22,236 nt of DNA from Elusimicrobiota bacterium (lineage in GTDB: Bacteria > Elusimicrobiota > UBA8919): NCBI GenBank assembly GCA_043816185.1, contig JBDRIG010000059.1, forward strand, positions 1 through 22,236, in the 5' to 3' direction. The notes beneath the pieces were generated by a model. It saw nothing but the letters and a program-made list of their open reading frames with translations. It was not told where the DNA came from and did no database searches. The position numbers were made by a program, and so were the translations under genes. Each line of letters begins with the position of its first letter. Within the stretch, counting starts at the first letter, position 1. Below are positions 1,172 through 20,243 of this stretch, piece by piece.

Positions 1172-2563
1172 TCAAACAACGTATTGTGATTTTTTGTTTT
1201 TCGCTAAAAATTCCTCTATTTCTTTTTTTTCTTTTTCAAAACCACTTCTTCCCATTAAACCATAAGTAAGTATTTTACCCAATTCTACCCCTGGCTGGTC
1301 AAAAGCATTTATTTCAAAAAGTTCGCCAATATATGCAGTTGCAAGTTCCAACATATAAAATAACTGTCCTATTGTATGCTCGGAAACTTCTGGAAAAACT
1401 ATTGTGCAATTTGGTCTTAATTGTTTTGTAAGTGCCACGCGGGTTGCTTCTTCTTCCGATTTTATCAGTTCATTAAGCGTGTGTTTTTCAAGATAATGCT
1501 TTTCCGATGTTTTCGGAATTACGATATTTGCACGATATTTTTCAACAGATAAAAATGTTATTATTTTATCGTAAGGCCCCTCAATGTAAAGTTGAACTTG
1601 CGAATGCTGATCAGTTACACCTAATGCTTTAATCGGAGTTGGGCCAACATTCACTACGTCGCCCTTGATGTTTGTTTTTTTTCCAAGTGACTCTGCCCAC
1701 AATTGCCTGAACCAATCGGAGACATCTTTTAGTGATTGAACATATGGCATCATCACGTCGATTTTTTTGCCCTTCTGATAGAGAAGATACTGGATTGCGG
1801 CATAAATTGCAGCAGGATTTTTTGATATGTTCTGGCCACAACGGATGTCCATATCCATTGCACCTTTCAAAAGTTTTTCAATTTTTATTCCACAGAAAGC
1901 TGCAGAAATAAGACCTACCGGCGATAACACAGAAAATCTTCCTCCGACATTTGCTGGTATTACAAAAGAAACAATTTTTTCTTTTTCAGCAAGCTCTCTT
2001 AAATAGCCTTTTTTTTCGTCGGTTGAAATAATAATGTGCTTTTGCCAGTTTTTAACACCAACTTTTTTTATCAAGGCATTTTTTAGAACGAAAAAGATTG
2101 CAAGACATTCCGCAGTAGTACCCGATTTTGAAATTATATTAAAAACTGTTTTTTTCAAATTGAGAACATCTAATAATGATTTTATAGATTCCGGATCAAC
2201 ATTATCTGGCACAAAAAGGCGCGGACAGTTTTTTCTCTCTTTTTTTGAAAGAAGATTCCAATACTGGTGATTTAACGCCGTCTGAATCGCGATATTTCCG
2301 AGTGCAGAACCACCTATCCCTATTACCACAAAATCATCAAATTTTGTTCTTTGTTTTTTTGCAAAATCACTTATTTTTTTTGCATCTTCCATCTTATACG
2401 GAAGTTCCATAAACCCTAATATTCCCTTTGATTTTTTCTGCTGAACGACGTTGCGAGCAGAAAAAAGTTTGGGATAAAGCAGCTGTAAATCCTTTTGATT
2501 TACTCCATGAACGCCTACGAGACCAGCCATACAATTTGTGTAGTCAAGTTTAATATCAGCCAT
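1172..2563 (-). CDS. pgi: Glucose-6-phosphate isomerase
   Basis: GIGGSALG, SKSGTTAE, VGGRFSVLS, QLWAESLGK, DQHSQ and FDQPGVE motifs. Start placed at ATG 2563, after a GAGGAGG RBS, rather than at 2578. Confidence 0.95.
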   Translation of the reverse strand: MADIKLDYTNCMAGLVGVHGVNQKDLQLLYPKLFSARNVVQQKKSKGILGFMELPYKMEDAKKISDFAKKQRTKFDDFVVIGIGGSALGNIAIQTALNHQYWNLLSKKERKNCPRLFVPDNVDPESIKSLLDVLNLKKTVFNIISKSGTTAECLAIFFVLKNALIKKVGVKNWQKHIIISTDEKKGYLRELAEKEKIVSFVIPANVGGRFSVLSPVGLISAAFCGIKIEKLLKGAMDMDIRCGQNISKNPAAIYAAIQYLLYQKGKKIDVMMPYVQSLKDVSDWFRQLWAESLGKKTNIKGDVVNVGPTPIKALGVTDQHSQVQLYIEGPYDKIITFLSVEKYRANIVIPKTSEKHYLEKHTLNELIKSEEEATRVALTKQLRPNCTIVFPEVSEHTIGQLFYMLELATAYIGELFEINAFDQPGVELGKILTYGLMGRSGFEKEKKEIEEFLAKNKKSQYVV

Positions 2564-2835: not shown

Positions 2836-5800
2836 TCACAACCCCATTATATTGTAAATACTACTGCTTTTACCATAATAAGAATCGTAGATGTGCTGAT
2901 AAATTCTATTGCAACAATCGGCATACATTTCTTTTGTGTAACTTTCAGGCAATTCTTCATTAAGAATATTCTGTATAGTTAGAAGCACATCTGCTCTTGC
3001 CTGTTGTTTTTTTCGCCAGTCCAATACGAGTTTTTCTTCTTTAAGGGTTTCAAGAAGTTTTTTAGATGCAAGTTTGACTTTGTCCTTTTCAGTATTCTTT
3101 AAGTCAGGTTTATATAACAGGTCAAATACGGCAAGTTGTTCTTCAGTAAGTTTTTCAGATATGTGCCTCTTTTCTTCAGTATTTAATTCTTTAGAAAACT
3201 TTTTAAGTTCATTAAAAAACATTTCTACATTCATTGCTCCAATATTATACTCGTCAACTAATTTTTGAAATTTTTCAAGGAAACCAGTTCTTTGCTTATT
3301 CAATTTGACCAACGCAACCAGTAAATTATTTATGCTATTTTTAAGCATTGACACTTCAATATGTTTTTTGTCTTTAATGAATTTTTCTTTTAACATATCA
3401 AAATCTATTTTACTTAAATCAATCTTATTACCGTAGGAAGAAGAAATAATGTCTGATATGATAAATCCTTTGGCATCAATGGAATTGTCAAGCAGGTTTT
3501 CCATTTTCTTTTTTACTTCTTCAATATCTGTTTCAGGAGATAGTTCTCCTATCTTATCTGCTATTGTTTTGAACATATAATACTTAACTCTAAATATTTC
3601 CGCCTTGGGGTCGGGAAGTATTGCTTTATACAGTTTTTTTATCAGGTTTGTTAAACTGATGAATTCTTTCCTTGTTTTTTCGTTTGAGATTATAATATCA
3701 ACCGCTTCAGTGATAAGTTTTATTGTAGTCAATTTATTGGCTTTAATAATCTTGTCAATATCAATCTTCTGTTGTTTGCAAAAAGTAGTCGCTTTATCAA
3801 TAACATCTTTTAATTCTTTTATCAGTTCGTCTTTTGGTTTGACGGGGTAATCAATCTCTTTGCCGCCAGGATTATATATGGCAAGTGCTTTTTGTAAACT
3901 CCTGAAAATGCCGATATAATCAACAATCAGTCCGTTGGGCTTATCGCCAAACACCCTGTTTGCTCTTGCTATTGTCTGCATAAGAGTGTGGTTTTTCATC
4001 GGCTTATCAAGATACATTGTTGAAAGACAAGGAACATCAAAGCCCGTCATCCACATAGAACAAACAAAAACAATTCTGAACGGATCCTGTTCATCTTTGA
4101 ATTTCGTTTCTAAATCTTCATCCAGCATTCTTTTACGGTGAGTTACAATATCCAATCCGAGGTCTCTGAATATTTTAATTTCATTTTGGTTATTTCCCCA
4201 ACTTACAACTACTGCTATATCGGTTTTTTCAAGATATTCAATTCTCTTTGTGAAAATTTCTTTTTCCCTGTCATCTCTTGCTTTAAGTTTTCTTGTACGT
4301 TCAATTTCTAATTTCAGATATTTTTTTACTTTATCATACATTTTAACAGCGGTTGGTCTGTCAATGGAAACAACCATCGCCTTGCCCTGATAACCTCTTG
4401 AAGAAAAATGCTTAACTATATCTTCCGCTATTTTTTCTAAACGGTCATCACGGGTTATTATATGATATGCTCTTTCAAACTCTCTCATTAGTTTTTCTTC
4501 CTGCCTGTCATCAAGCATAGCATCTTCAAGAATTTCTTCCAACCCAGTGCTTAAAACTTCACTATCCAATTGGACTTCTGGAATCCTGTTTTCATAATAC
4601 AACGGAACTGTTGCATTATCATCAACCGACTGTTTGAAACTATAAATGCTGACATAGTCGCCAAATGTCCCCTTTGTTTTTTCTTCGCCCACTATCAGTG
4701 GGGTAGCAGTAAATGCAATGAACGAAGCATTAGGCAATGCTTTCCGCATATTCATTGCCAATTGGTCATATTGTGTGCGGTGGGCTTCATCTGTTATTAC
4801 AATAATGTCGCTGCGGTCAGTTATGGGGTATTCCTTTTCTTCGTCTGTTCCCTGCTTACTTCCAGCAGGGACAAACCTGAACTTATGTATCAATGTAAAT
4901 ATGTTCCTGTGGTCTTCTTTAAGAAGTTGTTTTAAGTGAGAGCAACTATCAGCGTGAACTTCAATTTCCGTTACCGCACCGGTACTTTCAAAATTATTGT
5001 AAATCTGCTTGTCTAATTCTATTCTGTCTGTAACTATAAGAAAAGTATAGTTGCCATAAAATTTCCGCAGTATTTTCTGCGAGAAAAAAATCATTGAAAA
5101 ACTCTTACCGCTTCCTTGTGTATGCCAGAATACACCGAGTTGCCCTTTTTTGTTTTTAATATCTTTGAACGATTCTAATGTCTTATTAACTCCAAGATAC
5201 TGATGATTTTTTGCAAGAATTTTTATATAAGAACTGCCTTCTTTACCTCTTTTCTGAAAAAGAATAAAGTTTTCAAAAATATCAAGAAACTTGGATTTTT
5301 CACAAGTTCCTTTTATTATCGTATCAAGGGAAACAATTCCTTTCTCCCCCTCGTTGCTGATTTTCTTCCATTCGTTGAAGTGTTCCCAATCAGCAGTCAT
5401 TGAACCAATTTTACTTTCAGAACCGTTTGATAAAATAACAAATGCGTTATACCAGAAAATCTGCGGAATGGTATCCTTGTAATCGGTCAAATTGTCATTG
5501 AAAGCATTTTTAATGTTTCTATGAATTGCTTTAAGTTCAACAAAAATTAACGGTATGCCATTAACAAAGGCAACAAGGTCTGCCCTGCGTTTATACATAT
5601 CCCCGTTAATCCAGAACTGTGATGCAAGAAAGAAATCGTTATTTTCAGGATTGTCAAAATCAATGACTTTAACGGTTTCTAATTCTTCACTCCCATCTTC
5701 TTTACGGACAGGAACTTTCACTCCGTCTTTAAGAAGTTTGTATATTTCCCTATTTGCCACACTTGGATTTAATATGATGCGGTTTTTGGTTATTTCTTCA

Positions 5801-6021
5801 ACAGCGAGATTTATACTTTCAGGTTTCAATGTCGGGTTTAGACGGGATAGAGCGGTTTTTAGTTTTGGAATAAGGACAACATCCATAGAAGTTTCTCTGC
5901 CGAGTGTAGAATTCTGTCCGAACTGTTCTTCATAACAGTTTTGATGTTCATACCCGAGAAATTGAAATATCTCAATAGCACTATTTTCTATCAGTTGCTG
6001 TTCTGAAAAATTACCTGTCAT
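2836..6021 (-). CDS. hsdR: Type I restriction-modification endonuclease subunit R
   Basis: Nuclease motif RADLVAFVNGIPLIFVELK, Walker A HTQGSGKS, DEAH, FTATP, MTGFD and QTIARANR; uninterrupted 1061-aa ORF. Confidence 0.95.
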   Translation of the reverse strand: MTGNFSEQQLIENSAIEIFQFLGYEHQNCYEEQFGQNSTLGRETSMDVVLIPKLKTALSRLNPTLKPESINLAVEEITKNRIILNPSVANREIYKLLKDGVKVPVRKEDGSEELETVKVIDFDNPENNDFFLASQFWINGDMYKRRADLVAFVNGIPLIFVELKAIHRNIKNAFNDNLTDYKDTIPQIFWYNAFVILSNGSESKIGSMTADWEHFNEWKKISNEGEKGIVSLDTIIKGTCEKSKFLDIFENFILFQKRGKEGSSYIKILAKNHQYLGVNKTLESFKDIKNKKGQLGVFWHTQGSGKSFSMIFFSQKILRKFYGNYTFLIVTDRIELDKQIYNNFESTGAVTEIEVHADSCSHLKQLLKEDHRNIFTLIHKFRFVPAGSKQGTDEEKEYPITDRSDIIVITDEAHRTQYDQLAMNMRKALPNASFIAFTATPLIVGEEKTKGTFGDYVSIYSFKQSVDDNATVPLYYENRIPEVQLDSEVLSTGLEEILEDAMLDDRQEEKLMREFERAYHIITRDDRLEKIAEDIVKHFSSRGYQGKAMVVSIDRPTAVKMYDKVKKYLKLEIERTRKLKARDDREKEIFTKRIEYLEKTDIAVVVSWGNNQNEIKIFRDLGLDIVTHRKRMLDEDLETKFKDEQDPFRIVFVCSMWMTGFDVPCLSTMYLDKPMKNHTLMQTIARANRVFGDKPNGLIVDYIGIFRSLQKALAIYNPGGKEIDYPVKPKDELIKELKDVIDKATTFCKQQKIDIDKIIKANKLTTIKLITEAVDIIISNEKTRKEFISLTNLIKKLYKAILPDPKAEIFRVKYYMFKTIADKIGELSPETDIEEVKKKMENLLDNSIDAKGFIISDIISSSYGNKIDLSKIDFDMLKEKFIKDKKHIEVSMLKNSINNLLVALVKLNKQRTGFLEKFQKLVDEYNIGAMNVEMFFNELKKFSKELNTEEKRHISEKLTEEQLAVFDLLYKPDLKNTEKDKVKLASKKLLETLKEEKLVLDWRKKQQARADVLLTIQNILNEELPESYTKEMYADCCNRIYQHIYDSYYGKSSSIYNIMGL
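4849..4871. repeat. Short hairpin insert within hsdR (TCCCTGCT-7 nt-AGCAGGGA), encoding part of FVPAGSKQG
   Basis: Perfect 8-bp inverted arms; shares ccctgcttact and gcagg with 9193-9218. Confidence 0.7.
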
Positions 6022-6069
6022 TTAGAGTCCTCTTGTATTTATATAATATTGGTTGTTTCAAATTTTATT

Positions 6070-6573
6070 TCAATGCCATTCAGCATAAATATCACTTTCT
6101 TCTTTAAAAGTATGCTTCTCAATGTATTTTGCTTTTTCTAAAAAATCTTTTTCATTTCTGATTATATGGTCATAGAATGACCTTTGCCATATTCTATCGT
6201 GTTCGCGTAGGGGTGGGCTTGCCCACCCAATTATTGTCTGTGTAACCTTTACTTTTACTTTGCCAATATACTGCTGCCACAAATTTATTTTTCTATCGTT
6301 TGATAGAGTTATAAGCCCGTGTAAATGATTCGTCGCAATAATTATTCCATGAATAACTATTCCAAGTTCTTTCGCAATATTTTTTAATACCTCAATCGTT
6401 TTTTCTCGTATGATTTGGTCATTAAAAATCTTCTCCCGCTCAAATGTGCAAATTGTAAAAAAATACGGTCCTGGTAAAAAATAATCCCATGTTTTTAATC
6501 GTAAAGAAGATTTGCGTATGCGTATAAATGACGGGCGACCAAGGTCGCCCCTACGCGTGTTAGGCATTTTCAT
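6070..6573 (-). CDS. REP-associated tyrosine transposase (RAYT / IS200-like Y1 HUH endonuclease)
   Basis: SLRL..WDY..PG.YFFTICT N-terminus, HUH motif NHLH, WQRSFYDHIIR and candidate catalytic Tyr in KYIE. ATGA overlap with the hsdS stop. Confidence 0.88.
   Translation of the reverse strand: MKMPNTRRGDLGRPSFIRIRKSSLRLKTWDYFLPGPYFFTICTFEREKIFNDQIIREKTIEVLKNIAKELGIVIHGIIIATNHLHGLITLSNDRKINLWQQYIGKVKVKVTQTIIGWASPPLREHDRIWQRSFYDHIIRNEKDFLEKAKYIEKHTFKEESDIYAEWH
6204..6228 (+). repeat. GTAG-type REP hairpin inside the RAYT gene
   Basis: cgcGTAG-GGGTGGGC-tt-GCCCACCC, a perfect 8-bp GC-rich stem. Confidence 0.85.
6533..6557 (-). repeat. GTAG-type REP hairpin at the 5' end of the RAYT gene
   Basis: Minus strand reads cgcGTAG-GGGCGACC-tt-GGTCGCCC, a perfect 8-bp stem. 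Confidence 0.85.
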
Positions 6574-7682
6574 TCTGTGTCCTCTGTTTTTATGTCTAAA
6601 TCCGAGACATTAAGTTTACCCGAAATGAGTTTTGGGAGTAAAATATCTCTGGTTTCTATAAGATTGTTATTTTTGTCGTCAAGTAAGTTTATTTGCTTAA
6701 AAATAGGCACAACAATTTTGTTAAATTCAGAAATTAAATCTTGCTCAGGAATGACTAATTTTAGAGCAGAAATACCTTCAAGAGTAATTTGAGGTTGGGC
6801 TGTTCCTCCGATATAGTTATAAAGTCCTATATTCAGCAAACTATGGTAAAGAAAGAGTTTTTGTTCTTCATTTATATCAAAAATAAAAGAATTATTAGTC
6901 ACGAATGATTTTGGTTTTGTTATTTTTATCTGCCCCACGCTGCCCCGACATCCTGTAATTACCATCGGATTTTCATAATTATATTCATCATATTTTCCTA
7001 TAACTTTTGCGGCACCATAAACTAAATATTCCCCGTCTTTTTTCATTTTTGTAGTCGGCAGAGTTTTTCCATATCGTATATTACAAATATCAAAAATATT
7101 TTTTATTTCCCATTTTACAGGGATTTTGCCGAGTTCAGAGTTAACCATTTTTACTTTTTCGTGTCCTGGGAAACGAAACTTGACAAACCATTCGTTATAG
7201 AGGGTCTGTGCTATTTTCTCTAATATCTTAATTCGGCGATTGTTGTTTTCAATCAGGTCATCGTAGGCAGAAAGTACAGTGGCGATTGTTTTTTGTGCTA
7301 CTATTTTATGGACTTTGATTTCTAAATTATCAAGGTCATTTCTATTAAGAGTCGGGACACCAGTGCCTGAATTAAATTTATCCAGATTTATTGTCTGGAG
7401 ATAATAGTATACATAGTCCGAGTAATTACCCTTGAAATCCTTTACCCATAACGCTGTATTATGTGGCCAATATTTTTCATTGATAAATTGAACTTTCCCT
7501 AAAGAACCACTTCTTCCAGTCACCACACCAGGTGGATTGACCTTATATTGATTATGATATCCTAAAATAGATGTTGAACCAACCACTGGATATAAACCTT
7601 CAATCATATCCTTTTTAGGTAAATCAAAACCTCTTTGAAGTGTAATAAAATTTTTGAATTTAATTGTTTGCAATTTTGCCAT
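6570..7682 (-). CDS. hsdS: Type I R-M specificity subunit S
   Basis: Two TRD-like halves joined by the conserved LSAYDDLIENNNRRIKILE...LYNEWFVKFRFPG...LGKIP spacer; C-terminal L.ETRD.LLPKLISG. Confidence 0.93.
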   Translation of the reverse strand: MAKLQTIKFKNFITLQRGFDLPKKDMIEGLYPVVGSTSILGYHNQYKVNPPGVVTGRSGSLGKVQFINEKYWPHNTALWVKDFKGNYSDYVYYYLQTINLDKFNSGTGVPTLNRNDLDNLEIKVHKIVAQKTIATVLSAYDDLIENNNRRIKILEKIAQTLYNEWFVKFRFPGHEKVKMVNSELGKIPVKWEIKNIFDICNIRYGKTLPTTKMKKDGEYLVYGAAKVIGKYDEYNYENPMVITGCRGSVGQIKITKPKSFVTNNSFIFDINEEQKLFLYHSLLNIGLYNYIGGTAQPQITLEGISALKLVIPEQDLISEFNKIVVPIFKQINLLDDKNNNLIETRDILLPKLISGKLNVSDLDIKTEDTE

Positions 7683-7728
7683 TAAACTCCGATTAGTTTT
7701 GAACTATTATACTATGCTTCACTCATTT

Positions 7729-8763
7729 TCAATACTTCAGTTTTGACTCAATCTGCAAAATGCTTTTTTCTCTTTCAATTTCTGCCTTGAGTTCTTTTTC
7801 AGTCGGTAGATAAAGTTTATATTTTGAAGCAAAAATTCGTTTACTCTCACTTAGAAGAGTATATTTAACCATTGTTCGATTTTTATCCGAGCAGAGTATG
7901 AGTCCGATGGTTGGATTGTCATCTTGCTGTTTTACTTCTTTCTCAAAGTATCGCACATAAAAATCCATTTGCCCAATATCTTGATGTTTAAGTTTTCCAA
8001 CCTTCAAATCAATGATAACAAAACACTTCAAAATGTAATTATAAAATACGAGGTCAATGTAGAAATGCTCGTTCTCAACAGTTATCCTTTTTTGTCTTGC
8101 CACAAATGTAAATCCCTTCCCTAATTCAAGGATAAATTCCTGTAAATGTTCAATTAATGCTTGCTCAATCTGTGTTTCATTAAACTGGTGTTTTTCCGGG
8201 ATACCAAGAAACTCAAGAATATATGGGTCTTTTACTGCATCTTCTGGTTTTTCAATTATATGCCCTTTTTGTGCAAGTTTTAGAACACCTTTTTTATCTT
8301 TACTTAATGAAATTCTTTCAAATAAAAGAGAGTCAATTTGGCGGTCAAGTTGCCTTGTGCTCCAGTTTCCCGCTATCGCTTCTTTAATATAGAACGCTCT
8401 GGCATTCGTATCGTTCACTCGCATAAGAAGACGATAGTGTGTCCAAGTTAATTCTTGACGCAGTGCGTCAAGAATTGGAAACATCATATAAAATTTACGC
8501 ATATTCCATACATTAGTTGCGTCAAAACCCTTACCGAAATCGTTTGTTAATTTTTTGGAAAGTTTCTCAATAAGTTCCTTACCATAAACAGCCCGGCGTT
8601 TGCCTTTTTGTTCTTCTTCAACTATGAGATGCCCAATATTCCAATATGCTTCAACTATCGTAAAATTTACTGCCCTGTAAATTTTATTTCGTGCTTCATC
8701 TAAAATCGTTTTGATTTTTTTATAGAGCGTATTAAAACTTTCTAAAGGAATTAATTTATTCAT
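7729..8763 (-). CDS. YhcG/DUF1016 family PD-(D/E)XK nuclease-domain protein
   Basis: AYWNIG, WS.RQL.RQI, KDPYILEFL, LELGKGF.FVARQ, IDLVFYN, IDLK, GQMDFY and PTIGLILC motifs. Confidence 0.93.
   Translation of the reverse strand: MNKLIPLESFNTLYKKIKTILDEARNKIYRAVNFTIVEAYWNIGHLIVEEEQKGKRRAVYGKELIEKLSKKLTNDFGKGFDATNVWNMRKFYMMFPILDALRQELTWTHYRLLMRVNDTNARAFYIKEAIAGNWSTRQLDRQIDSLLFERISLSKDKKGVLKLAQKGHIIEKPEDAVKDPYILEFLGIPEKHQFNETQIEQALIEHLQEFILELGKGFTFVARQKRITVENEHFYIDLVFYNYILKCFVIIDLKVGKLKHQDIGQMDFYVRYFEKEVKQQDDNPTIGLILCSDKNRTMVKYTLLSESKRIFASKYKLYLPTEKELKAEIEREKSILQIESKLKY
8450..8476. repeat. Perfect 27-bp palindrome within the yhcG-like gene
   Basis: AATTCTTGACGCA-g-TGCGTCAAGAATT; encodes ILDALRQEL. 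Confidence 0.9.
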
Positions 8764-8765
8764 AT

Positions 8766-10353
8766 TTATTCTATCTCCAATATCTTTGTAATGTTTTCTG
8801 ATATTTGACTTTCTACCTTTTTCGCTTCCGCATTAAGAATATTCAATTCTTTGTTCAATTCCTCTATCCGTTCCCTAAAATCAAAGTCGTCTTCTTCTCT
8901 TTCAGCAACTCCGACATAGCGACCTGGGTTCAGTGAATATCCCTGTTCCGTGATTTCTTTTATTGTTGCTACTTTGCAGAGTCCTGCAACATTCTGATAT
9001 TTACCTTTTGGGAAAGATTCTTTCATCAGTTTTTCACTGCCACTAATTGTTTCAACTTTTCTACCACGGTATAATCTTACTATGTTTGAAATGAACTCTG
9101 TTTGTTCAGGGGTATATTCTCTATGGGCACGGTCAATTTGTTTGTATATACTACGGGTATCAATGAATAGGACTTTGTCTTTATTGGATGTCCCCTGCTT
9201 ACTACATGCAGTGGCAGGTTTTCGTTTTTCCTTTATCAAAAAACCATAATGTGCAGGGTAGTGCTACGGTATAAAAGAAGTTTGGACCAACGGAGATAAT
9301 TACATCTACCACCCCTTCTTCTATCATCTTTTTTCTGATGTCCTGTTCTGATTGTCTGGCATCAGCGGCAGAGTTTGCCATAACAAAACCTGCTCTGCCT
9401 TTGTCATTAAGTGTATTAAGAAAAATCTGTATCCATAAATAATTGGCATTATCGGGTTTTGGTATTCCATAACTGAATCGCTTGTCTTCCTTGATTTTTT
9501 CTTTATCTACTCCGCTTACATTGAAAGGCGGATTTGCCATTACGAAATCAAACTTATTTATTGAATTGTGCGGGTCATCGTAATAAGTATTCCCTGGTTT
9601 TATATCTCCTGATAGATTGTATATGGCAAGGTTCATCTTGCATAGTTTTATCGTCTCGGCGGTTTTCTCCTGACCGTATATGGAAATTTCTTTGTTTGGT
9701 ATTGCTTTATGTTTTTCTACAAATTTTGCACTATGAACAAACATACCGCCAGAACCACAGGCCGGGTCATAAATTTTACCGTGAAACGGTTCTATAACTT
9801 CCACTATAAGTTTGACAATAGAGGCAGGAGTGAAAAATTCTCCGCCTTTTTGTCCTTCCGCTAATGCAAATTTGCCGAGAAAGTATTCATAAATTTTGCC
9901 GAATATATCTCCTTCAGCGTCCATAGGAATACTTGAGAGTGTTTTTAATAGGGCTATCAAAACATCTTTTTCAAATTCGTTATATGTTTTGGGCAGGATC
10001 CCTTTAAGTTCTTCATTTTCGGACTCTATTTGTTTCATTGCATTGTTGATGGCTTTTCCGATGTCTTCACTTTCAGGAAGGTTATTTAAGTAACCGTAAC
10101 GGCTGGTTTCTGGGATATATAAAATACCTTTTGCCTGATAATCGGTTTTTGATATTCCTTTACGGCTTTTTGATTTCCGATGTTGTTTTTCAATCTCCTC
10201 ATTTGCGATAGAGAATCTTATATCAGCATAGAGTAAAAAGATTAACCCTAATACCGGGACGGAATATTCTGACGATTTCAAATGTGAGTTTGCTCTGAGT
10301 TGGTCTGCGACTTCCCAAAGCCGTTTTTCTGTATCAGTGTGATTGCCAGACAT
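8766..10353 (-). pseudogene. hsdM: Type I R-M methyltransferase subunit M, split by a +1 frameshift near 9190-9230
   Basis: ORF 9202-10353 has [23 protein letters not shown] and NPPF. The continuation KDKVLFID...YSLNPGRYV and the C-terminal helix lie in another frame (8766-9239). Confidence 0.9.
9190..9218. repeat. Hairpin insert at the hsdM frameshift
   Basis: Minus strand CCTGC-cACTGCATGTAGTaa-GCAGG. Removing 9190-9217 (28 nt) restores the frame as DKGKTKTSNKDKVLFID. Confidence 0.7.
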
Positions 10354-18068: not shown

Positions 18069-19109
18069 TCAATTGTAAACGAAAAACCGTTGTATTTTTT
18101 TGTTATTCGGTTTTTTTATTACTCCTTTTTCTGTAATGATTGCAGATATAAGATTGTGGGGCGTAACATCAAATGCTGGGTGAAATGCTTTAACGCCAAC
18201 GGGAGATATTCTGTGTCCATTGATAAATGTAACTTCATCAGAATTCCTATATTCAATTTTTATTTTTTTACCGTTAGAAATACTAAAATCAAAAGTAGAA
18301 ACCGGTGCGGCAACATAAAACGGTATTTTATTGTGCTTACATAAAACAGCAAGTGTATAGGTTCCAATTTTGTTGGCGGTGTCGCCATTGACAGCAATTC
18401 TATCAGCACCGACGATAACACCATCGATTTTGCCTGTTGAAATGAAATATCCAGCCATGTTATCAGTTATCAAAATACATGGAATTTTTTCTTGTAAAAG
18501 TTCCCATGTTGTCAGTCGTGCTCCTTGCAAATATGGTCTTGTTTCGTCGACATAAACCAATTTTATTTTTCCTTGTCTATGTGCTGTTTTTATGATACCT
18601 AAAGCAGTTCCCCAACCAGCAGTTGCAAGTGTGCCTGCATTACAATGGGTGAGAATAGTTGATTTTTTTTTAAAAAGTTTGGAGCCGTTTTCACTTATTT
18701 TTTTATTTATAGCAATGTCTTCTCTATAAATTCTATCTGCTTCTGTCTTAATAACAATTATTAACTCTTGCACTGATGAACCATTAAATAATTGAACGAC
18801 TTTATTTATTCTGCCAACTGCCCACAAAAGATTTACTGCTGTAGGTCTGGCGGACGTAAGATGTAGGCTAACAATTTTAAGATATTTTTTTAAGCCTTCA
18901 ATGCTTTTAATTTTTTTTTCTAAAGATGCAAGATACATTCCGTAACTAGCGGCAACACCTATTGCTGGAGCACCACGAATAGCCATATCTTTAATACATT
19001 TATAAACATCTCTATGGTTTTTACAGATAATATATGCAATTTTAGACGGTAAAAGTCGCTGGTCTAAAATTTTCAAAACGTTTTTTTCGAGATAGAGCGT
19101 TTCAATCAT
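18069..19109 (-). CDS. mtnA: S-methyl-5-thioribose-1-phosphate isomerase
   Basis: LDQRLLP, IRGAPAIG, RPTAVNL, THCNAG, ETRPYLQGARLT, NKIGTY and FDVTP motifs. Confidence 0.95.
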   Translation of the reverse strand: MIETLYLEKNVLKILDQRLLPSKIAYIICKNHRDVYKCIKDMAIRGAPAIGVAASYGMYLASLEKKIKSIEGLKKYLKIVSLHLTSARPTAVNLLWAVGRINKVVQLFNGSSVQELIIVIKTEADRIYREDIAINKKISENGSKLFKKKSTILTHCNAGTLATAGWGTALGIIKTAHRQGKIKLVYVDETRPYLQGARLTTWELLQEKIPCILITDNMAGYFISTGKIDGVIVGADRIAVNGDTANKIGTYTLAVLCKHNKIPFYVAAPVSTFDFSISNGKKIKIEYRNSDEVTFINGHRISPVGVKAFHPAFDVTPHNLISAIITEKGVIKKPNNKKIQRFFVYN

Positions 19110-19918: not shown

Positions 19919-20032
19919 AGACTGTGCACAATCCATCTTTTACCATCTAGTGTTGGATTACAGTACCATATTTTATCATCAGTTACTATCTTCTATAAAA
20001 ATGCAACTTTTTAGCTCATTGCGACACAGTCT
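19919..20032. mobile_element. Putative 114-bp MITE-like element with imperfect terminal inverted repeats
   Basis: Left end AGACTGTG-CACAA; the right end reverse-complemented is AGACTGTGTCGCAA. It abuts the pcm truncation, and a similar end occurs at 153-169. No clear target-site duplication. Confidence 0.5.
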
Positions 20033-20033
20033 G

Positions 20034-20243
20034 ATTAACGCAATAATATATGGTTGTGAAATTGTTTGTTTTTCGAGAATGGAAAGCGGATAGTTGCCAT
20101 ATGCATTATCATAAAATTTTTTTTCAATGAACTTTTCGCGTGGAATTTTCAGCATTGCATCAATTACTTTTTTTGTCAGAAATCCCACGTATAACAATCT
20201 GCGTTTCCACCATTTTTTGACGCAACGTTTTAAAATCATTCAT
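20034..20243 (-). pseudogene. pcm: Protein-L-isoaspartate O-methyltransferase remnant (5' part only, frameshifted)
   Basis: ATG 20243 gives MNDFKTLRQKMVETQIVIRGISDKK. An extra A in the A7 run (20168-20174) shifts the frame to VIDAMLKIPREKF...AY...PL.I...QTISQPY. No SAM-binding motif follows. Confidence 0.88.

What the first reader, a model, noticed from the sequence alone, without database searches (positions are those of the whole stretch)
4849..9218. A tiny hairpin element inserted in two R-M genes: in frame in hsdR, at the frameshift in hsdM
Seen (minus strand): hsdR has CCTGC-TGGA-AGTAAGCAGGGA-ACA at 4846-4869 and hsdM has CCTGC-CACTGCATGT-AGTAAGCAGGGG-ACA at 9189-9218. They share CCTGC/GCAGG arms, an identical 11-mer AGTAAGCAGGG and the same 3' junction before ACA. 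They translate alike, as PAGSKQGT and [10 protein letters not shown]. From recalled family consensus, each looks like about 9 extra codons (KFR^TDEEKEYP; DKGKTK^TSNKDKVLFID). Inference: a mobile palindromic micro-element that enters coding sequence, analogous to Rickettsia palindromic elements. The neighbouring HUH enzyme might mobilise it, although it lacks the GTAG foot.
Basis: partly seen in the sequence, partly recalled or inferred. Interest (0 to 1): 0.75.

Follow-up and report, generated by a model that had tools for sequence, protein, structure and literature searches.

The report
Tiny hairpin repeat inside restriction genes
Two restriction-modification genes each carry a copy of a 28-base hairpin repeat that is scattered through the genomes, and often the genes, of many uncultivated bacteria; one copy adds nine amino acids and the other breaks its gene.

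Summary
hsdR (2836-6021, minus) and the split hsdM (8766-10353, minus) each hold a hairpin with the same 11-mer, far beyond chance. Both are insertions. All 41 closest HsdR homologs, one of them 93% identical, lack the nine residues FVPAGSKQG. HsdM homologs of 92-95% identity are empty where the window has 28 extra bases and a +1 frameshift.

The two copies belong to a large repeat family. One truncated scan of species genomes gave 94 tagged copies in 44 assemblies from about ten phylum-level groups. The element has a 5' tail RCYTG, a 7-bp stem YCCCTGC/GCAGGGR with a covarying closing pair, and a 9-nt loop. A model built without the window scores its copies at 44.9 and 35.3 bits.

Family copies sit in loops of other REP hairpins, beside heptamer repeats, and in frame in genes such as priA, ligA, pheT and tilS. 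In genes, 28 of 30 are in sense orientation.

Intragenic REP-like palindromes are already published, so this is a new variant of a known kind. Nothing links it to the neighbouring RAYT-like gene, which has its own GTAG hairpins. The mobilising enzyme is unknown.

The parts
4849..4876 (-). Family copy in hsdR: the 28-mer GTTTGT-CCCTGC-TGGA-AGTAA-GCAGGG-A. The net gain against homologs is 27 nt (4849-4875), encoding FVPAGSKQG (residues 383-391). All 7 stem pairs are intact.
   Evidence: Sequence. Scores 35.3 bits, E 3.6e-8, against model R1, which was built without window sequences. The nine residues are absent from 41 of 41 closest homologs. It is the only gap in the 93.0% alignment to P0004. 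ssDNA fold -8.9 kcal/mol, z -3.16.
9192..9219 (-). Family copy in hsdM: the 28-mer ACCTGC-CACTGC-ATGT-AGTAA-GCAGGG-G. It is inserted between the Lys codon (9220-9222) and the Thr codon ACA (9189-9191). It causes a +1 frameshift and brings TAG TAA into the upstream frame. One stem pair is non-standard.
   Evidence: Sequence. Scores 44.9 bits, E 8.2e-11, against R1. Of 41 closest HsdM homologs, 40 have nothing at this position, including P0124 and P0125 (94.7% and 92.3% identical over the N-part).
2836..6021 (-). hsdR, type I restriction subunit R, 1061 aa, intact reading frame.
   Evidence: Pfam HSDR_N, SWI2_SNF2, ResIII, T1R_D3-like, T1RH-like_C. The insertion lies between the TLIHKF segment and the DEAH box when aligned to EcoR124I HsdR.
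9202..10353 (-). hsdM N-terminal fragment (383 aa). It ends in a stop codon supplied by the element.
   Evidence: Pfam HsdM_N and N6_Mtase profile positions 3-236 of 311; translation.
8766..9191 (-). hsdM C-terminal part in the +1 frame (TSNKDKVLFID... to the stop).
   Evidence: Pfam N6_Mtase profile positions 232-311 of 311; translation; alignment.
6070..6573 (-). RAYT-like Y1 HUH ORF (167 aa) between hsdS and hsdR. HLH and RSFY motifs are present.
   Evidence: Pfam Y1_Tnp E 1.6e-8. NCBIfam REP_Tyr_transpos 73.2 bits, below the cut-off of 80. PDB hits are IS200-type transposases and TnpArep 4er8, E 0.011.
6533..6554 (-). GTAG-tagged REP hairpin (GTAG plus an 8-bp GC stem and a TT loop) inside codons 7-14 of the RAYT-like ORF. 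It is a different repeat kind from the hsdR and hsdM element.
   Evidence: GTAGGGGNNNNC: 2 found, 0.09 expected.
6207..6228 (+). Second GTAG-tagged REP hairpin, inverted relative to the first, inside the RAYT-like ORF (codons 116-123). It causes no net length change against homologs.
6570..7682 (-). hsdS specificity subunit.
   Evidence: Pfam Methylase_S.
7729..8763 (-). YhcG/DUF1016 PDDEXK nuclease gene between hsdM and hsdS.
   Evidence: Pfam YhcG_C and DUF1016_N.

Best explanation
The two hairpins are solo copies of a widespread, non-coding, REP-like palindromic repeat.

Anatomy. The unit is 27-28 nt: a 5' tail RCYTG, a 7-bp stem YCCCTGC/GCAGGGR and a 9-nt loop ARGYAGTAA. It usually follows AA.

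What happened here. The copies entered a type I restriction-modification operon after it diverged from relatives that are still 92-95% identical. In hsdR the net gain is 27 nt. This is read through as a nine-residue loop (FVPAGSKQG) about 20 residues before the DEAH box, and the frame stays open. In hsdM the full 28 nt went in between a Lys and a Thr codon. That shifts the frame and supplies TAG TAA, so hsdM is most likely a fresh pseudogene and the system is probably inactive.

Shown: the insertions, family membership, multi-copy and multi-phylum distribution, the stem covariation, in-frame residence in many genes, and the sense-strand bias.

Inferred mechanism (about 0.4). The unit is a non-autonomous element. 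It is copied as a folded single strand at the replication fork by a trans-acting HUH/Y1-type enzyme, as proposed for REPs, and inserts just 3' of short A-rich sites. Selection then keeps only copies that land in tolerant loops and preserve the frame. The enzyme is unidentified and is probably not the neighbouring RAYT-like gene.
For: Insertions:
- 41 of 41 closest HsdR homologs lack the nine residues. The alignment to P0004 has 975 of 1048 identical positions and a single 9-residue gap.
- 40 of 41 closest HsdM homologs are empty at the site.

Family:
- After one duplicate locus was dropped there were 123 matches. Of these, 94 carry the additional 5' hexamer RYHTRY, which chance would give in about 1% of matches. 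They fall in 44 assemblies, up to 12 in one.
- The untagged matches are mostly singletons in other phyla.

Structure:
- The closing pair covaries: C-G 46, T-A 34, T-G 4, T-T 1 of 85.
- On 52 distinct rows it is CG 29, UA 18, UG 4, other 1. Of 500 shuffles, 0 reach the observed covariation score.

Independent scoring:
- Model R1 (52 sequences, none from the window) gives 44.9 and 35.3 bits for the two copies. Nothing else in the window scores above 9.7 bits.
- The three pgi chance matches that share the hsdR 21-mer do not reach E 0.01.

Coding residence:
- 30 of the 87 tagged copies with enough flank lie in ORFs open at least 200 nt on both sides.
- 23 of 26 such ORFs have Pfam domains, including PriA, LigA, PheT, TilS, MurD-like and Cas10.
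- In LigA, KPAPASSKQG is present only in the query's own record among 56 aligned sequences.
- 28 of 30 are in sense orientation, and 20 use the same ..PA.SKQG frame as the window copies.

Target and length:
- A is found at positions -8 and -7 in 60 and 68 of 85 copies.
- Host REP hairpins have loops of 4 nt (23) or 30-31 nt (30), a difference of 26-27 nt.
Against: - No copy could be counted in the source genome, which was not found among the rows returned. Within the 22-kb window there are only these two copies.
- Empty sites are known only at the protein level. The exact junctions, any target duplication, and the choice between 27 and 28 nt are therefore unresolved.
- The scan pattern was derived from the two window copies and fixes 17 bases, so family variation is under-sampled and only one stem pair was free to covary.
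- The hsdR copy differs from the nearest family variant at 3 of 28 positions. Its loop variant (TGGA) was otherwise seen only in chance pgi matches.
- No enzyme is linked to the family. One weak RAYT-like hit was found in 1.02 Mb of flanks. Di Nocera et al. state that CGTC REPs lack a dedicated transposase (abstract).
- The sense-strand bias could come from selection on the encoded peptide rather than from the mechanism.
- The frameshift could be a base-calling or assembly error in the A-run next to a hairpin.
Confidence: 0.75

Rival explanations
1. The neighbouring RAYT-like HUH enzyme (6070-6573) mobilised the two copies locally.
For: An HUH/Y1 ORF with HLH and RSFY motifs lies inside the same operon, between the two insertions. 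Both window copies are in the 7.5-kb operon and none is in the other 14.7 kb. TnpA-REP enzymes process folded single-stranded hairpins (Corneloup et al. 2021, PMC8266576, abstract only).
Against: The ORF carries two canonical GTAG hairpins of its own. Their stems and loops are unrelated to the element, and the element has no GTAG tag next to its stem. Corneloup et al. report that TnpA-REP and their cognate REPs co-evolve (abstract). tblastn of this protein against 1.02 Mb around family copies found one weak hit, E 2.9e-4. Two of two copies falling in a third of the window is expected by chance about one time in nine.
Confidence: 0.1
2. The copies are not transposed. They are written in by repair or recombination: a short patch copied from another genomic copy, or template switching at a hairpin during replication. 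The family would then spread by gene-conversion-like events.
For: The 5' tail is a near-duplicate of the 5' stem arm (GCCTGC then CCCTGC), and the sequence offers several alternative pairings. Copies occur in tandem and beside heptamer repeats, which are typical slippage products. In hsdR the bases just outside the stem can also pair with the flank. No transposase is associated.
Against: The same 27-28-nt unit has sharp conserved edges in unrelated flanks across 44 assemblies. Nearly identical units occur in several phyla. Insertion lands at a precise point in 4-nt loops of other hairpins.
Confidence: 0.15
3. hsdM is really intact. The element there is a 27-nt in-frame insertion, as in hsdR, and the extra base is a sequencing or assembly error in the A-rich run next to the hairpin.
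For: The junction lies in AAAAACGAAAA, which has homopolymer runs. In-frame copies in the ..PA.SKQG frame are the commonest state in other genes, and the hsdM downstream frame reads PATACSKQG. The net gain in hsdR and in nested loops is 27 nt.
Against: A full family unit including the covarying last base is 28 nt. The hsdM copy matches it end to end at 44.9 bits, so a plain insertion predicts exactly this frameshift. No read data are available.
Confidence: 0.12
4. The resemblance is chance, or these are native variable loops of the two proteins.
For: Both sites are length-variable among homologs. A 21-mer identical to the hsdR copy occurs by chance in pgi genes of three phyla, where it encodes FPAYFQQG on the other strand.
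Against: Shuffle controls, the absence from homologs of 92-95% identity, and model scores of E 8e-11 and 4e-8 while the pgi matches fail.
Confidence: 0.02
5. Full-length HsdM is still made by translational bypassing of the 28 nt. A Thr codon ACC would be the take-off site and the Thr codon ACA the landing site, giving exactly DKGKTK-T-SNKDKV.
For: Skipping from ACC (9217-9219) to ACA (9189-9191) restores a product of the same length as the homologs. A hairpin and in-frame stops lie in the gap.
Against: The take-off and landing codons are not identical. The stops are four codons downstream, not adjacent. No such system is known in bacteria outside phage T4 gene 60 (recalled). Family copies in other genes are simply read through.
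Confidence: 0.03

Closest known systems
CGTC-tagged REPs (Di Nocera, De Gregorio and Rocco 2013, PMC3733652), which include Rickettsia RPE-4 and RPE-6 and Neisseria dRS3
   Same: Both are short GC-rich hairpin repeats with an unpaired 5' tag, in many copies. Both are sometimes inside ORFs, where they are translated, often in DNA replication and repair genes, and neither has a dedicated transposase. In the same genomes, 3 of 123 scan matches have the full CGTC-type layout (TGTC, an 8-bp stem starting AT, a CCAG tail) with the same stem core CCCTGC and the same 9-nt loop as the element. Thirty family copies sit inside the loop of TGTC-ATTCCYGC...GCRGGAAT-CCA hairpins.
   Different: The stem is 7 bp and does not start with AT. 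The loop is 9 nt, against 4-5. There is no CCA tail. The tag is RCYTG rather than CGTC, although TGTC can be read in the T-variants, where it overlaps the stem. The taxa are not alpha-proteobacterial. Copies also occur nested in other REPs' loops and beside heptamer repeats.
GTAG-tagged REPs/REPINs with RAYT (TnpA-REP) enzymes
   Same: Hairpin plus 5' tag architecture, proposed single-strand mobilisation in trans, and a RAYT-like gene present in the window.
   Different: There is no GTAG next to the stem. The element does not flank the RAYT-like gene, which has its own GTAG hairpins. No inverted doublet was seen in the window. The family is near-identical across several phyla, whereas REPIN-RAYT systems are described as mostly vertically inherited (bioRxiv 10.1101/2022.05.22.493013, start of abstract in the listing).
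Rickettsia palindromic elements RPE-1 (recalled: Ogata et al. 2000; cited within PMC3733652)
   Same: A selfish palindromic insert read through in frame inside protein-coding genes, tolerated in surface loops.
   Different: RPE-1 is described as a longer palindromic insertion (PMC3733652 passage). It is restricted to Rickettsia, and no sequence relation was tested.
Translational bypassing elements (phage T4 gene 60; yeast mitochondrial byps), recalled
   Same: A short GC-rich hairpin insert in a coding sequence that interrupts the frame, as in hsdM.
   Different: No matching take-off and landing codons, and no evidence of bypass. Other family copies are translated.

Membership tests
28-nt hairpin repeat family defined here (model R1) | 5' tail RCYTG(Y) directly before the stem | tested here: met
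   hsdM has ACCTGC and hsdR has GTTTGT. Both were aligned over all 30 model positions. The tag is present in 94 of 123 scan matches.
28-nt hairpin repeat family defined here (model R1) | 7-bp stem YCCCTGC/GCAGGGR with a covarying closing pair, and a 9-nt loop ARGYAGTAA | tested here: met
   In hsdR all 7 of 7 pairs form, with a T-A closing pair. In hsdM 6 of 7 form, with a C-G closing pair. Covariation is shown. The loops are TGGAAGTAA and ATGTAGTAA.
28-nt hairpin repeat family defined here (model R1) | Many copies per genome | not testable with these tools
   The source genome was not identified. Other genomes hold up to 12 copies among the rows returned. About 16 extra diverged copies were found in 0.98 Mb of flanks.
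CGTC-tagged REP superfamily (PMC3733652) | Unpaired terminal CGTC, TGTC or CCTC tag | tested here: inconclusive
   hsdR reads TGTC, but its last two bases are in the stem. hsdM reads CTGC.
CGTC-tagged REP superfamily (PMC3733652) | Stem of 8-9 bp starting with A-T pairs; loop of 4-5 nt; unpaired CCA tail | tested here: not met
   The stem is 7 bp and starts Y-R, the loop is 9 nt, and there is no conserved base after position +21. The definition is taken from section 6 of the paper.
GTAG REP / REPIN-RAYT system | GTAG tag adjacent to the hairpin | tested here: not met
   There is no GTAG 5' of either stem. In hsdM, GTAG occurs only inside the loop.
GTAG REP / REPIN-RAYT system | Cognate repeats flank the RAYT gene in inverted orientation | tested here: not met
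   The hairpins at and inside the RAYT-like ORF are GTAGGGG-type with TT loops, not the element.
IS200/IS605-derived miniature elements | Two different subterminal hairpins (left and right ends) and insertion 3' of a specific 4-5-nt target | tested here: not met
   There is a single hairpin of 28 nt. Only a loose preference for AA before the unit is seen.
Intragenic palindromic elements read through in frame (RPE-like behaviour) | Present inside an intact ORF, absent from close homologs, length a multiple of three | tested here: met
   Met for hsdR, which gains 27 nt or 9 aa. Not met for hsdM, which gains 28 nt and is frameshifted.
Rfam RNA families | Match to any curated covariance model | tested here: not met
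   20 loci with family copies gave only two matches, both far below their gathering scores and to unrelated families.

The most novel reading that the evidence does not exclude
The 28-mer is the recognition hairpin of a still unidentified single-strand DNA mobilisation system, distinct from GTAG-type RAYTs. That would make it in effect a third tag class of REPs. This system would have carried a nearly invariant unit across about ten phylum-level groups. It would insert the unit next to short A-rich sites and into the loops of other REPs, and place it almost always in the sense strand of genes, including essential ones. Under this reading the hsdM copy is a recent insertion caught before selection removed it, and the HsdM loop is a recurrent landing site for several unrelated palindromic elements.
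Probability: 0.3. Interest if true: 0.7.

Novelty: new variant of a known kind. Interest (0 to 1): 0.55.

Why it matters
For annotation. The element explains an apparent frameshift in hsdM and an odd nine-residue loop in HsdR. It also gives a compact model for recognising the same unit in metagenome-assembled genomes, where it lengthens real proteins such as PriA, LigA, PheT, TilS and Cas10 and may seed spurious ORFs.

For biology. The unit is only 27-28 nt long, yet it is almost identical in Nitrospirota, Nitrospinota, Desulfobacterota-type lineages, Pirellulales, Elusimicrobia, some Gammaproteobacteria and candidate phyla. In genes it is found in sense orientation 28 times out of 30. That is hard to reconcile with the mostly vertical, lineage-specific picture of REPINs. 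Di Nocera et al. left open which enzyme moves tag-bearing REPs that lack a RAYT, and a family this sharply defined is well suited to phyletic profiling for that enzyme.

For restriction-modification. This is a natural case of a type I system probably switched off by a micro-element. One HsdM loop has also taken in different short inserts in at least 7 of 120 relatives.

Tried and rejected
I listed hairpins with my own script instead.
- Rfam gave nothing relevant for 20 loci.
- BLAST of a 30-nt family unit found no match in plasmids. In phages it found only 18-19-nt partial matches, in lysozyme genes of Yersinia phages and in a Mycobacterium phage, which I take as chance. Both collections hold mainly cultured hosts.
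- tblastn with the RAYT-like protein against all loci gave one weak hit.
- The AlphaFold2 model of HsdR from a 41-sequence alignment was poor: mean pLDDT 56.5, pTM 0.32. Residues 383-397 are coil with pLDDT below 50, but at this quality that says little. No fold search was made.
- The identity of the hsdR 21-mer to pgi genes of three phyla, and the pgi gene next to hsdR, raised the idea of a copy from pgi. I rejected it. The window's pgi lacks that motif, the pgi matches lack the 5' tail, and they fail the model.
- Other strong hairpins in window genes were checked: yhcG 8450-8476, pgi 2432-2466, mtnA 19038-19071. They are not insertions, or could not be shown to be.
- A full-text search for the two 11-mers found 15 papers. 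The 12 listed look like primer strings in unrelated studies, judged by title only. Two keyword searches for intragenic REP-like repeats found nothing on this family. Papers outside the held library were not searched.
- The lower identity of the HsdM C-part (73.7% and 84.1%, against 94.7% and 92.3% for the N-part) is also seen in a more distant homolog. It cannot be read as decay.

Full report
**1. The observation.**
On the minus strand, hsdR (2836-6021) reads AGG TTT GTC CCT GCT GGA AGT AAG CAG GGA ACA. hsdM reads ACG AAA ACC TGC CAC TGC ATG TAG TAA GCA GGG GAC ATC C.

The 11-mer AGTAAGCAGGG occurs only at these two places, even with one mismatch allowed. Shuffles expect 0.12, and 1 of 100 reached two. 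The only two CCTGC-N(0-20)-GCAGG hairpins in the 22-kb window are these same places. Shuffles expect 0.05, and 0 of 100 reached two.

hsdM is split into an N-part ORF (9202-10353, ending [11 protein letters not shown]) and a C-part frame (reading [16 protein letters not shown]...).

**2. Both are insertions.**
I aligned HsdR with its 41 best database relatives. All 41 go straight from KF(R/S/G) to T/S-E/D-..., and none has FVPAGSKQG. Against the closest relative (P0004), 975 of 1048 aligned residues are identical (93.0%), and the only gap in the whole alignment is this nine-residue block.

I aligned the two HsdM fragments with 41 relatives. Forty have nothing between DKGKxx and TxxKDKV. These include P0124 and P0125, which are 94.7% and 92.3% identical over the N-part. 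Removing 28 nt (9192-9219) restores DKGKTK-TSNKDKV, the same length as the relatives. Removing 27 or 30 nt does not. This follows from reading the sequence.

**3. The two copies belong to a large family.**
The only scan of species genomes allowed used a gap-free pattern that both copies fit, with 17 specified bases. For uniform base composition, my arithmetic expects about 70 chance matches in the whole 596-Gb collection.

After one duplicate locus (L101) was dropped, there were 123 matches:
- 94 carry the same extra hexamer RYHTRY directly upstream. Chance would give this in about 1% of matches.
- 3 carry TGTCAT.
- 26 carry something else.

The 94 tagged copies come from 44 assemblies. The richest are:
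- 12 copies in one Nitrospirota MAG.
- 6 each in an Elusimicrobia MAG, a Nitrospinota MAG and an unclassified MAG.

The record titles name Nitrospirota, Nitrospinota, Deltaproteobacteria/Thermodesulfobacteriota/Myxococcales, Pirellulales, Gammaproteobacteria, Elusimicrobia, Omnitrophota, Ratteibacteria and Latescibacterota. Some of my phylum labels are from recall. The untagged matches are mostly singletons in other phyla, as chance matches would be. Three of them are pgi genes, where the opposite strand encodes FPAYFQQG.

**4. Anatomy.**
Across 85 distinct tagged copies, conservation runs from position -8 to +21 and stops sharply on both sides. The layout is:
- AA, with A in 60 and 68 of 85 copies at the two positions.
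- The tail RCYTG.
- The stem YCCCTGC.
- The loop ARGYAGTAA.
- The stem GCAGGGR.

Only one stem pair was left free by the search pattern, and it covaries: C-G 46, T-A 34, T-G 4, T-T 1. On 52 distinct 30-mers the counts are CG 29, UA 18, UG 4, other 1. None of 500 shuffles reached the observed covariation score, and all slid registers pair far worse.

The tail is a near-repeat of the 5' arm.

A covariance model built from those 52 sequences, none from the window, scores the hsdM copy at 44.9 bits (E 8e-11) and the hsdR copy at 35.3 bits (E 4e-8). The next best match in the window, at 9.7 bits, is the same hsdR hairpin read on the other strand. Run over 0.98 Mb of loci, the model gave 95 matches. 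About 16 were diverged copies that the exact pattern had missed, and the pgi look-alikes were not among them. Rfam has no matching family.

**5. Where family copies sit.**
- Thirty of 94 lie inside the loop of another hairpin of the form TGTC-ATTCCYGC...GCRGGAAT-CCA. In the fetched DNA, such hairpins have loops of 4 nt (23 cases), 9 nt (10) or 30-31 nt (30). The long class equals a 4-nt loop plus 26-27 nt. The duplicate locus was not removed from this count.
- Some 9-nt loops resemble the element's own loop.
- Twenty of 94 are flanked by heptamer repeats such as GGGGCAA.
- Of the 87 with enough flank, 30 lie in reading frames open at least 200 nt on both sides.

Of 26 such frames sent to Pfam, 23 are real genes. 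They include PriA (two), PheT, LigA, a MurD-like ligase, TilS (two), PmbA/TldD, a XerC-like integrase, Cas10, a P-type ATPase, UDP-glucose dehydrogenase and UDG. The element sits mostly between domains.

In the LigA case, KPAPASSKQG is present only in the query's own record among 56 aligned ligases.

Of the 30 copies in ORFs, 28 are in sense orientation. Twenty are read as ..PA.SKQG, the frame of both window copies, and eight as ..LPLQ.VSRG. In antisense orientation all three frames are free of stops (read from the consensus). Stop avoidance therefore does not explain the bias.

**6. The window context.**
The operon runs hsdM, yhcG-like nuclease, hsdS, a RAYT-like ORF, then hsdR, all on the minus strand.

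The RAYT-like ORF has Pfam Y1_Tnp at E 1.6e-8. Its NCBIfam REP_Tyr_transpos score is 73.2 bits, below the cut-off of 80. Its weak PDB matches are IS200-type transposases and TnpArep.

The ORF contains two canonical GTAG hairpins in inverted orientation, each GTAGGGG plus an 8-bp stem with a TT loop, at 6554-6533 (minus strand) and 6207-6228 (plus strand). For the pattern used, 0.09 were expected and 2 were found. They are unrelated to the hsdR and hsdM element.

tblastn with this protein found one weak hit in 1.02 Mb around family copies elsewhere. Nothing ties this gene to the element.

**7. Consequences.**
In HsdR the nine residues lie between the TLIHKF segment and the DEAH box. EcoR124I HsdR has a gap there, and relatives vary in length there. 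The structure model was too poor to add much: pLDDT 56.5, with residues 383-397 as low-confidence coil.

In hsdM, the N-part frame runs into TAG TAA inside the element. No in-frame ATG follows in the C-part frame (read). hsdM is therefore most likely inactive. A type I enzyme needs the M subunit for both methylation and restriction (established knowledge of type I systems), so the whole system is probably off. This is an inference.

**8. Mechanism.**
Shown:
- The same unit was added at two places after divergence from relatives of 92-95% identity.
- The unit is multi-copy in many genomes.
- Its ends are sharp.
- It tends to follow AA.
- It is found inside small hairpin loops.
- It has a strong orientation bias in genes.

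Inferred (about 0.4): movement as a folded single strand by a trans-acting HUH/Y1-type enzyme at the fork, as proposed for REPs (Corneloup et al. 2021, abstract only). Selection would then filter for tolerant loops and for frame.

Rivals:
- Local action of the neighbouring RAYT-like gene (0.1).
- Templated repair or slippage (0.15).
- A sequencing error making the hsdM copy look 28 rather than 27 nt (0.12).
- Translational bypass from ACC to ACA (0.03).
- Chance (0.02).

**9. Comparison with what is known.**
Di Nocera et al. 2013 (abstract, section 6 and passages read) sort REPs into GTAG- and CGTC-tagged superfamilies. They report REPs inside ORFs, many in replication and repair genes. They equate Rickettsia RPE-4 and RPE-6 with CGTC REPs, and they note that CGTC REPs lack a dedicated transposase.

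The host hairpins in section 5 fit their CGTC layout. Three scan matches combine that layout with the element's stem core and loop. The element itself fails the CGTC definition on stem length, the A-T start, loop size and the CCA tail, and it fails the GTAG definition outright.

It therefore behaves like an intragenic REP or RPE and is probably kin to CGTC REPs, but it is a distinct variant. I found no paper on it: a string search and three keyword searches turned up nothing. The held library lacks most subscription journals, and I did not read the supplements of the 2013 paper.

**10. Limits.**
- The source genome was not among the rows returned, and the scan was truncated.
- The scan pattern fixed most positions, so diversity and covariation are under-sampled.
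- Most genomes are MAGs.
- The inserts seen in other HsdM and HsdR relatives are known only as peptides. Their resemblance to translated palindromic repeats is from recall and is untested.

Noticed in passing
HsdM relatives P0160, P0174, P0183, P0189, P0203, P0214, P0225 (alignment block at the window's insertion site, equivalent to window 9191/9192): Seven of the 120 best HsdM relatives carry unrelated short inserts of 6-40 residues at exactly the loop where the window has its element. Examples are AINGVP/AINGVS/TINGVS and PPSPP...GEG-type strings. The loop looks like a recurrent landing or tolerance site. The peptides resemble translated palindromic repeats, but that is from recall and no DNA was seen.
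   Followed up: partly
HsdR relatives P0093, P0098, P0102, P0111, P0122; P0053, P0061, P0086; P0082; P0119: Other rare in-frame inserts occur at four other positions of HsdR relatives. PPLPPFTKGGMGGF-like strings are found in 5, TLTPTLSQ(K/G)ER-like strings in 3, and there are two singletons. This suggests that this widely shared type I system often picks up short repeats.
   Followed up: no
window 6533-6554 (-) and 6207-6228 (+): Two GTAG-tagged REP hairpins with TT loops and different, internally complementary stems lie in inverted orientation within the RAYT-like ORF. One is in codons 7-14. The other is in codons 116-123, with no net length change against family profiles. A REP inside its own presumed transposase gene is odd.
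   Followed up: partly
window 8450-8476: A perfect 27-nt palindrome (12-bp stem, 3-nt loop) lies inside the yhcG-like gene and encodes PILDALRQEL. Pfam coordinates show no extra residues there, so it is not an insertion. A perfect 12-bp stem is rare by chance in 22 kb (my estimate is about 0.02-0.05).
   Followed up: partly
window 2432-2466, 19038-19071, 8661-8686: Further long perfect stems of 10-11 bp lie inside coding sequence: the pgi N-terminus, the mtnA-like N-terminus, and yhcG. They were not compared with homologs.
   Followed up: no
loci L016, L020, L029, L053, L082, L088, L099 and others: Family copies in Nitrospinota and Deltaproteobacteria MAGs are often bracketed by tandem heptamers (GGGGCAA or GGGTCAA), inside ORFs as ...KGQGA-SLPLQAVSRG-GKGQG... 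The unit is 28 nt, which is four heptamers. This may be a link between the hairpin and heptamer slippage.
   Followed up: no
loci L010, L035, L057, L100, L118 (one Elusimicrobia MAG); L001, L034, L076, L079, L092, L104, L107 (one Nitrospirota MAG): In these genomes the 28-mer recurs with near-identical flanks of 25-30 nt on both sides. There it travels as part of a larger composite repeat: a host REP with the unit in its loop, followed by a second hairpin.
   Followed up: no
loci L006, L039, L065: pgi genes of three phyla encode FPAYFQQG with a 21-mer that is the exact reverse complement of the hsdR copy's core. I judged this a coincidence: there is no 5' tail and the model score is below threshold.
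   Followed up: yes
window 19979-20239: An 86-residue ORF matches only positions 16-65 of the 210-position PCMT (protein-L-isoaspartate methyltransferase) profile. It may be a gene fragment.
   Followed up: no
LigA relatives P0245-P0279 (linker between the HhH and BRCT domains): The LigA linker in Nitrospinota relatives holds several different short low-complexity inserts (SPLTPLFQRGVRGDL-type, VVSGQWSVVS-type, ERQEARSKKQ-type). It is another loop that collects repeat-like sequence.
   Followed up: no
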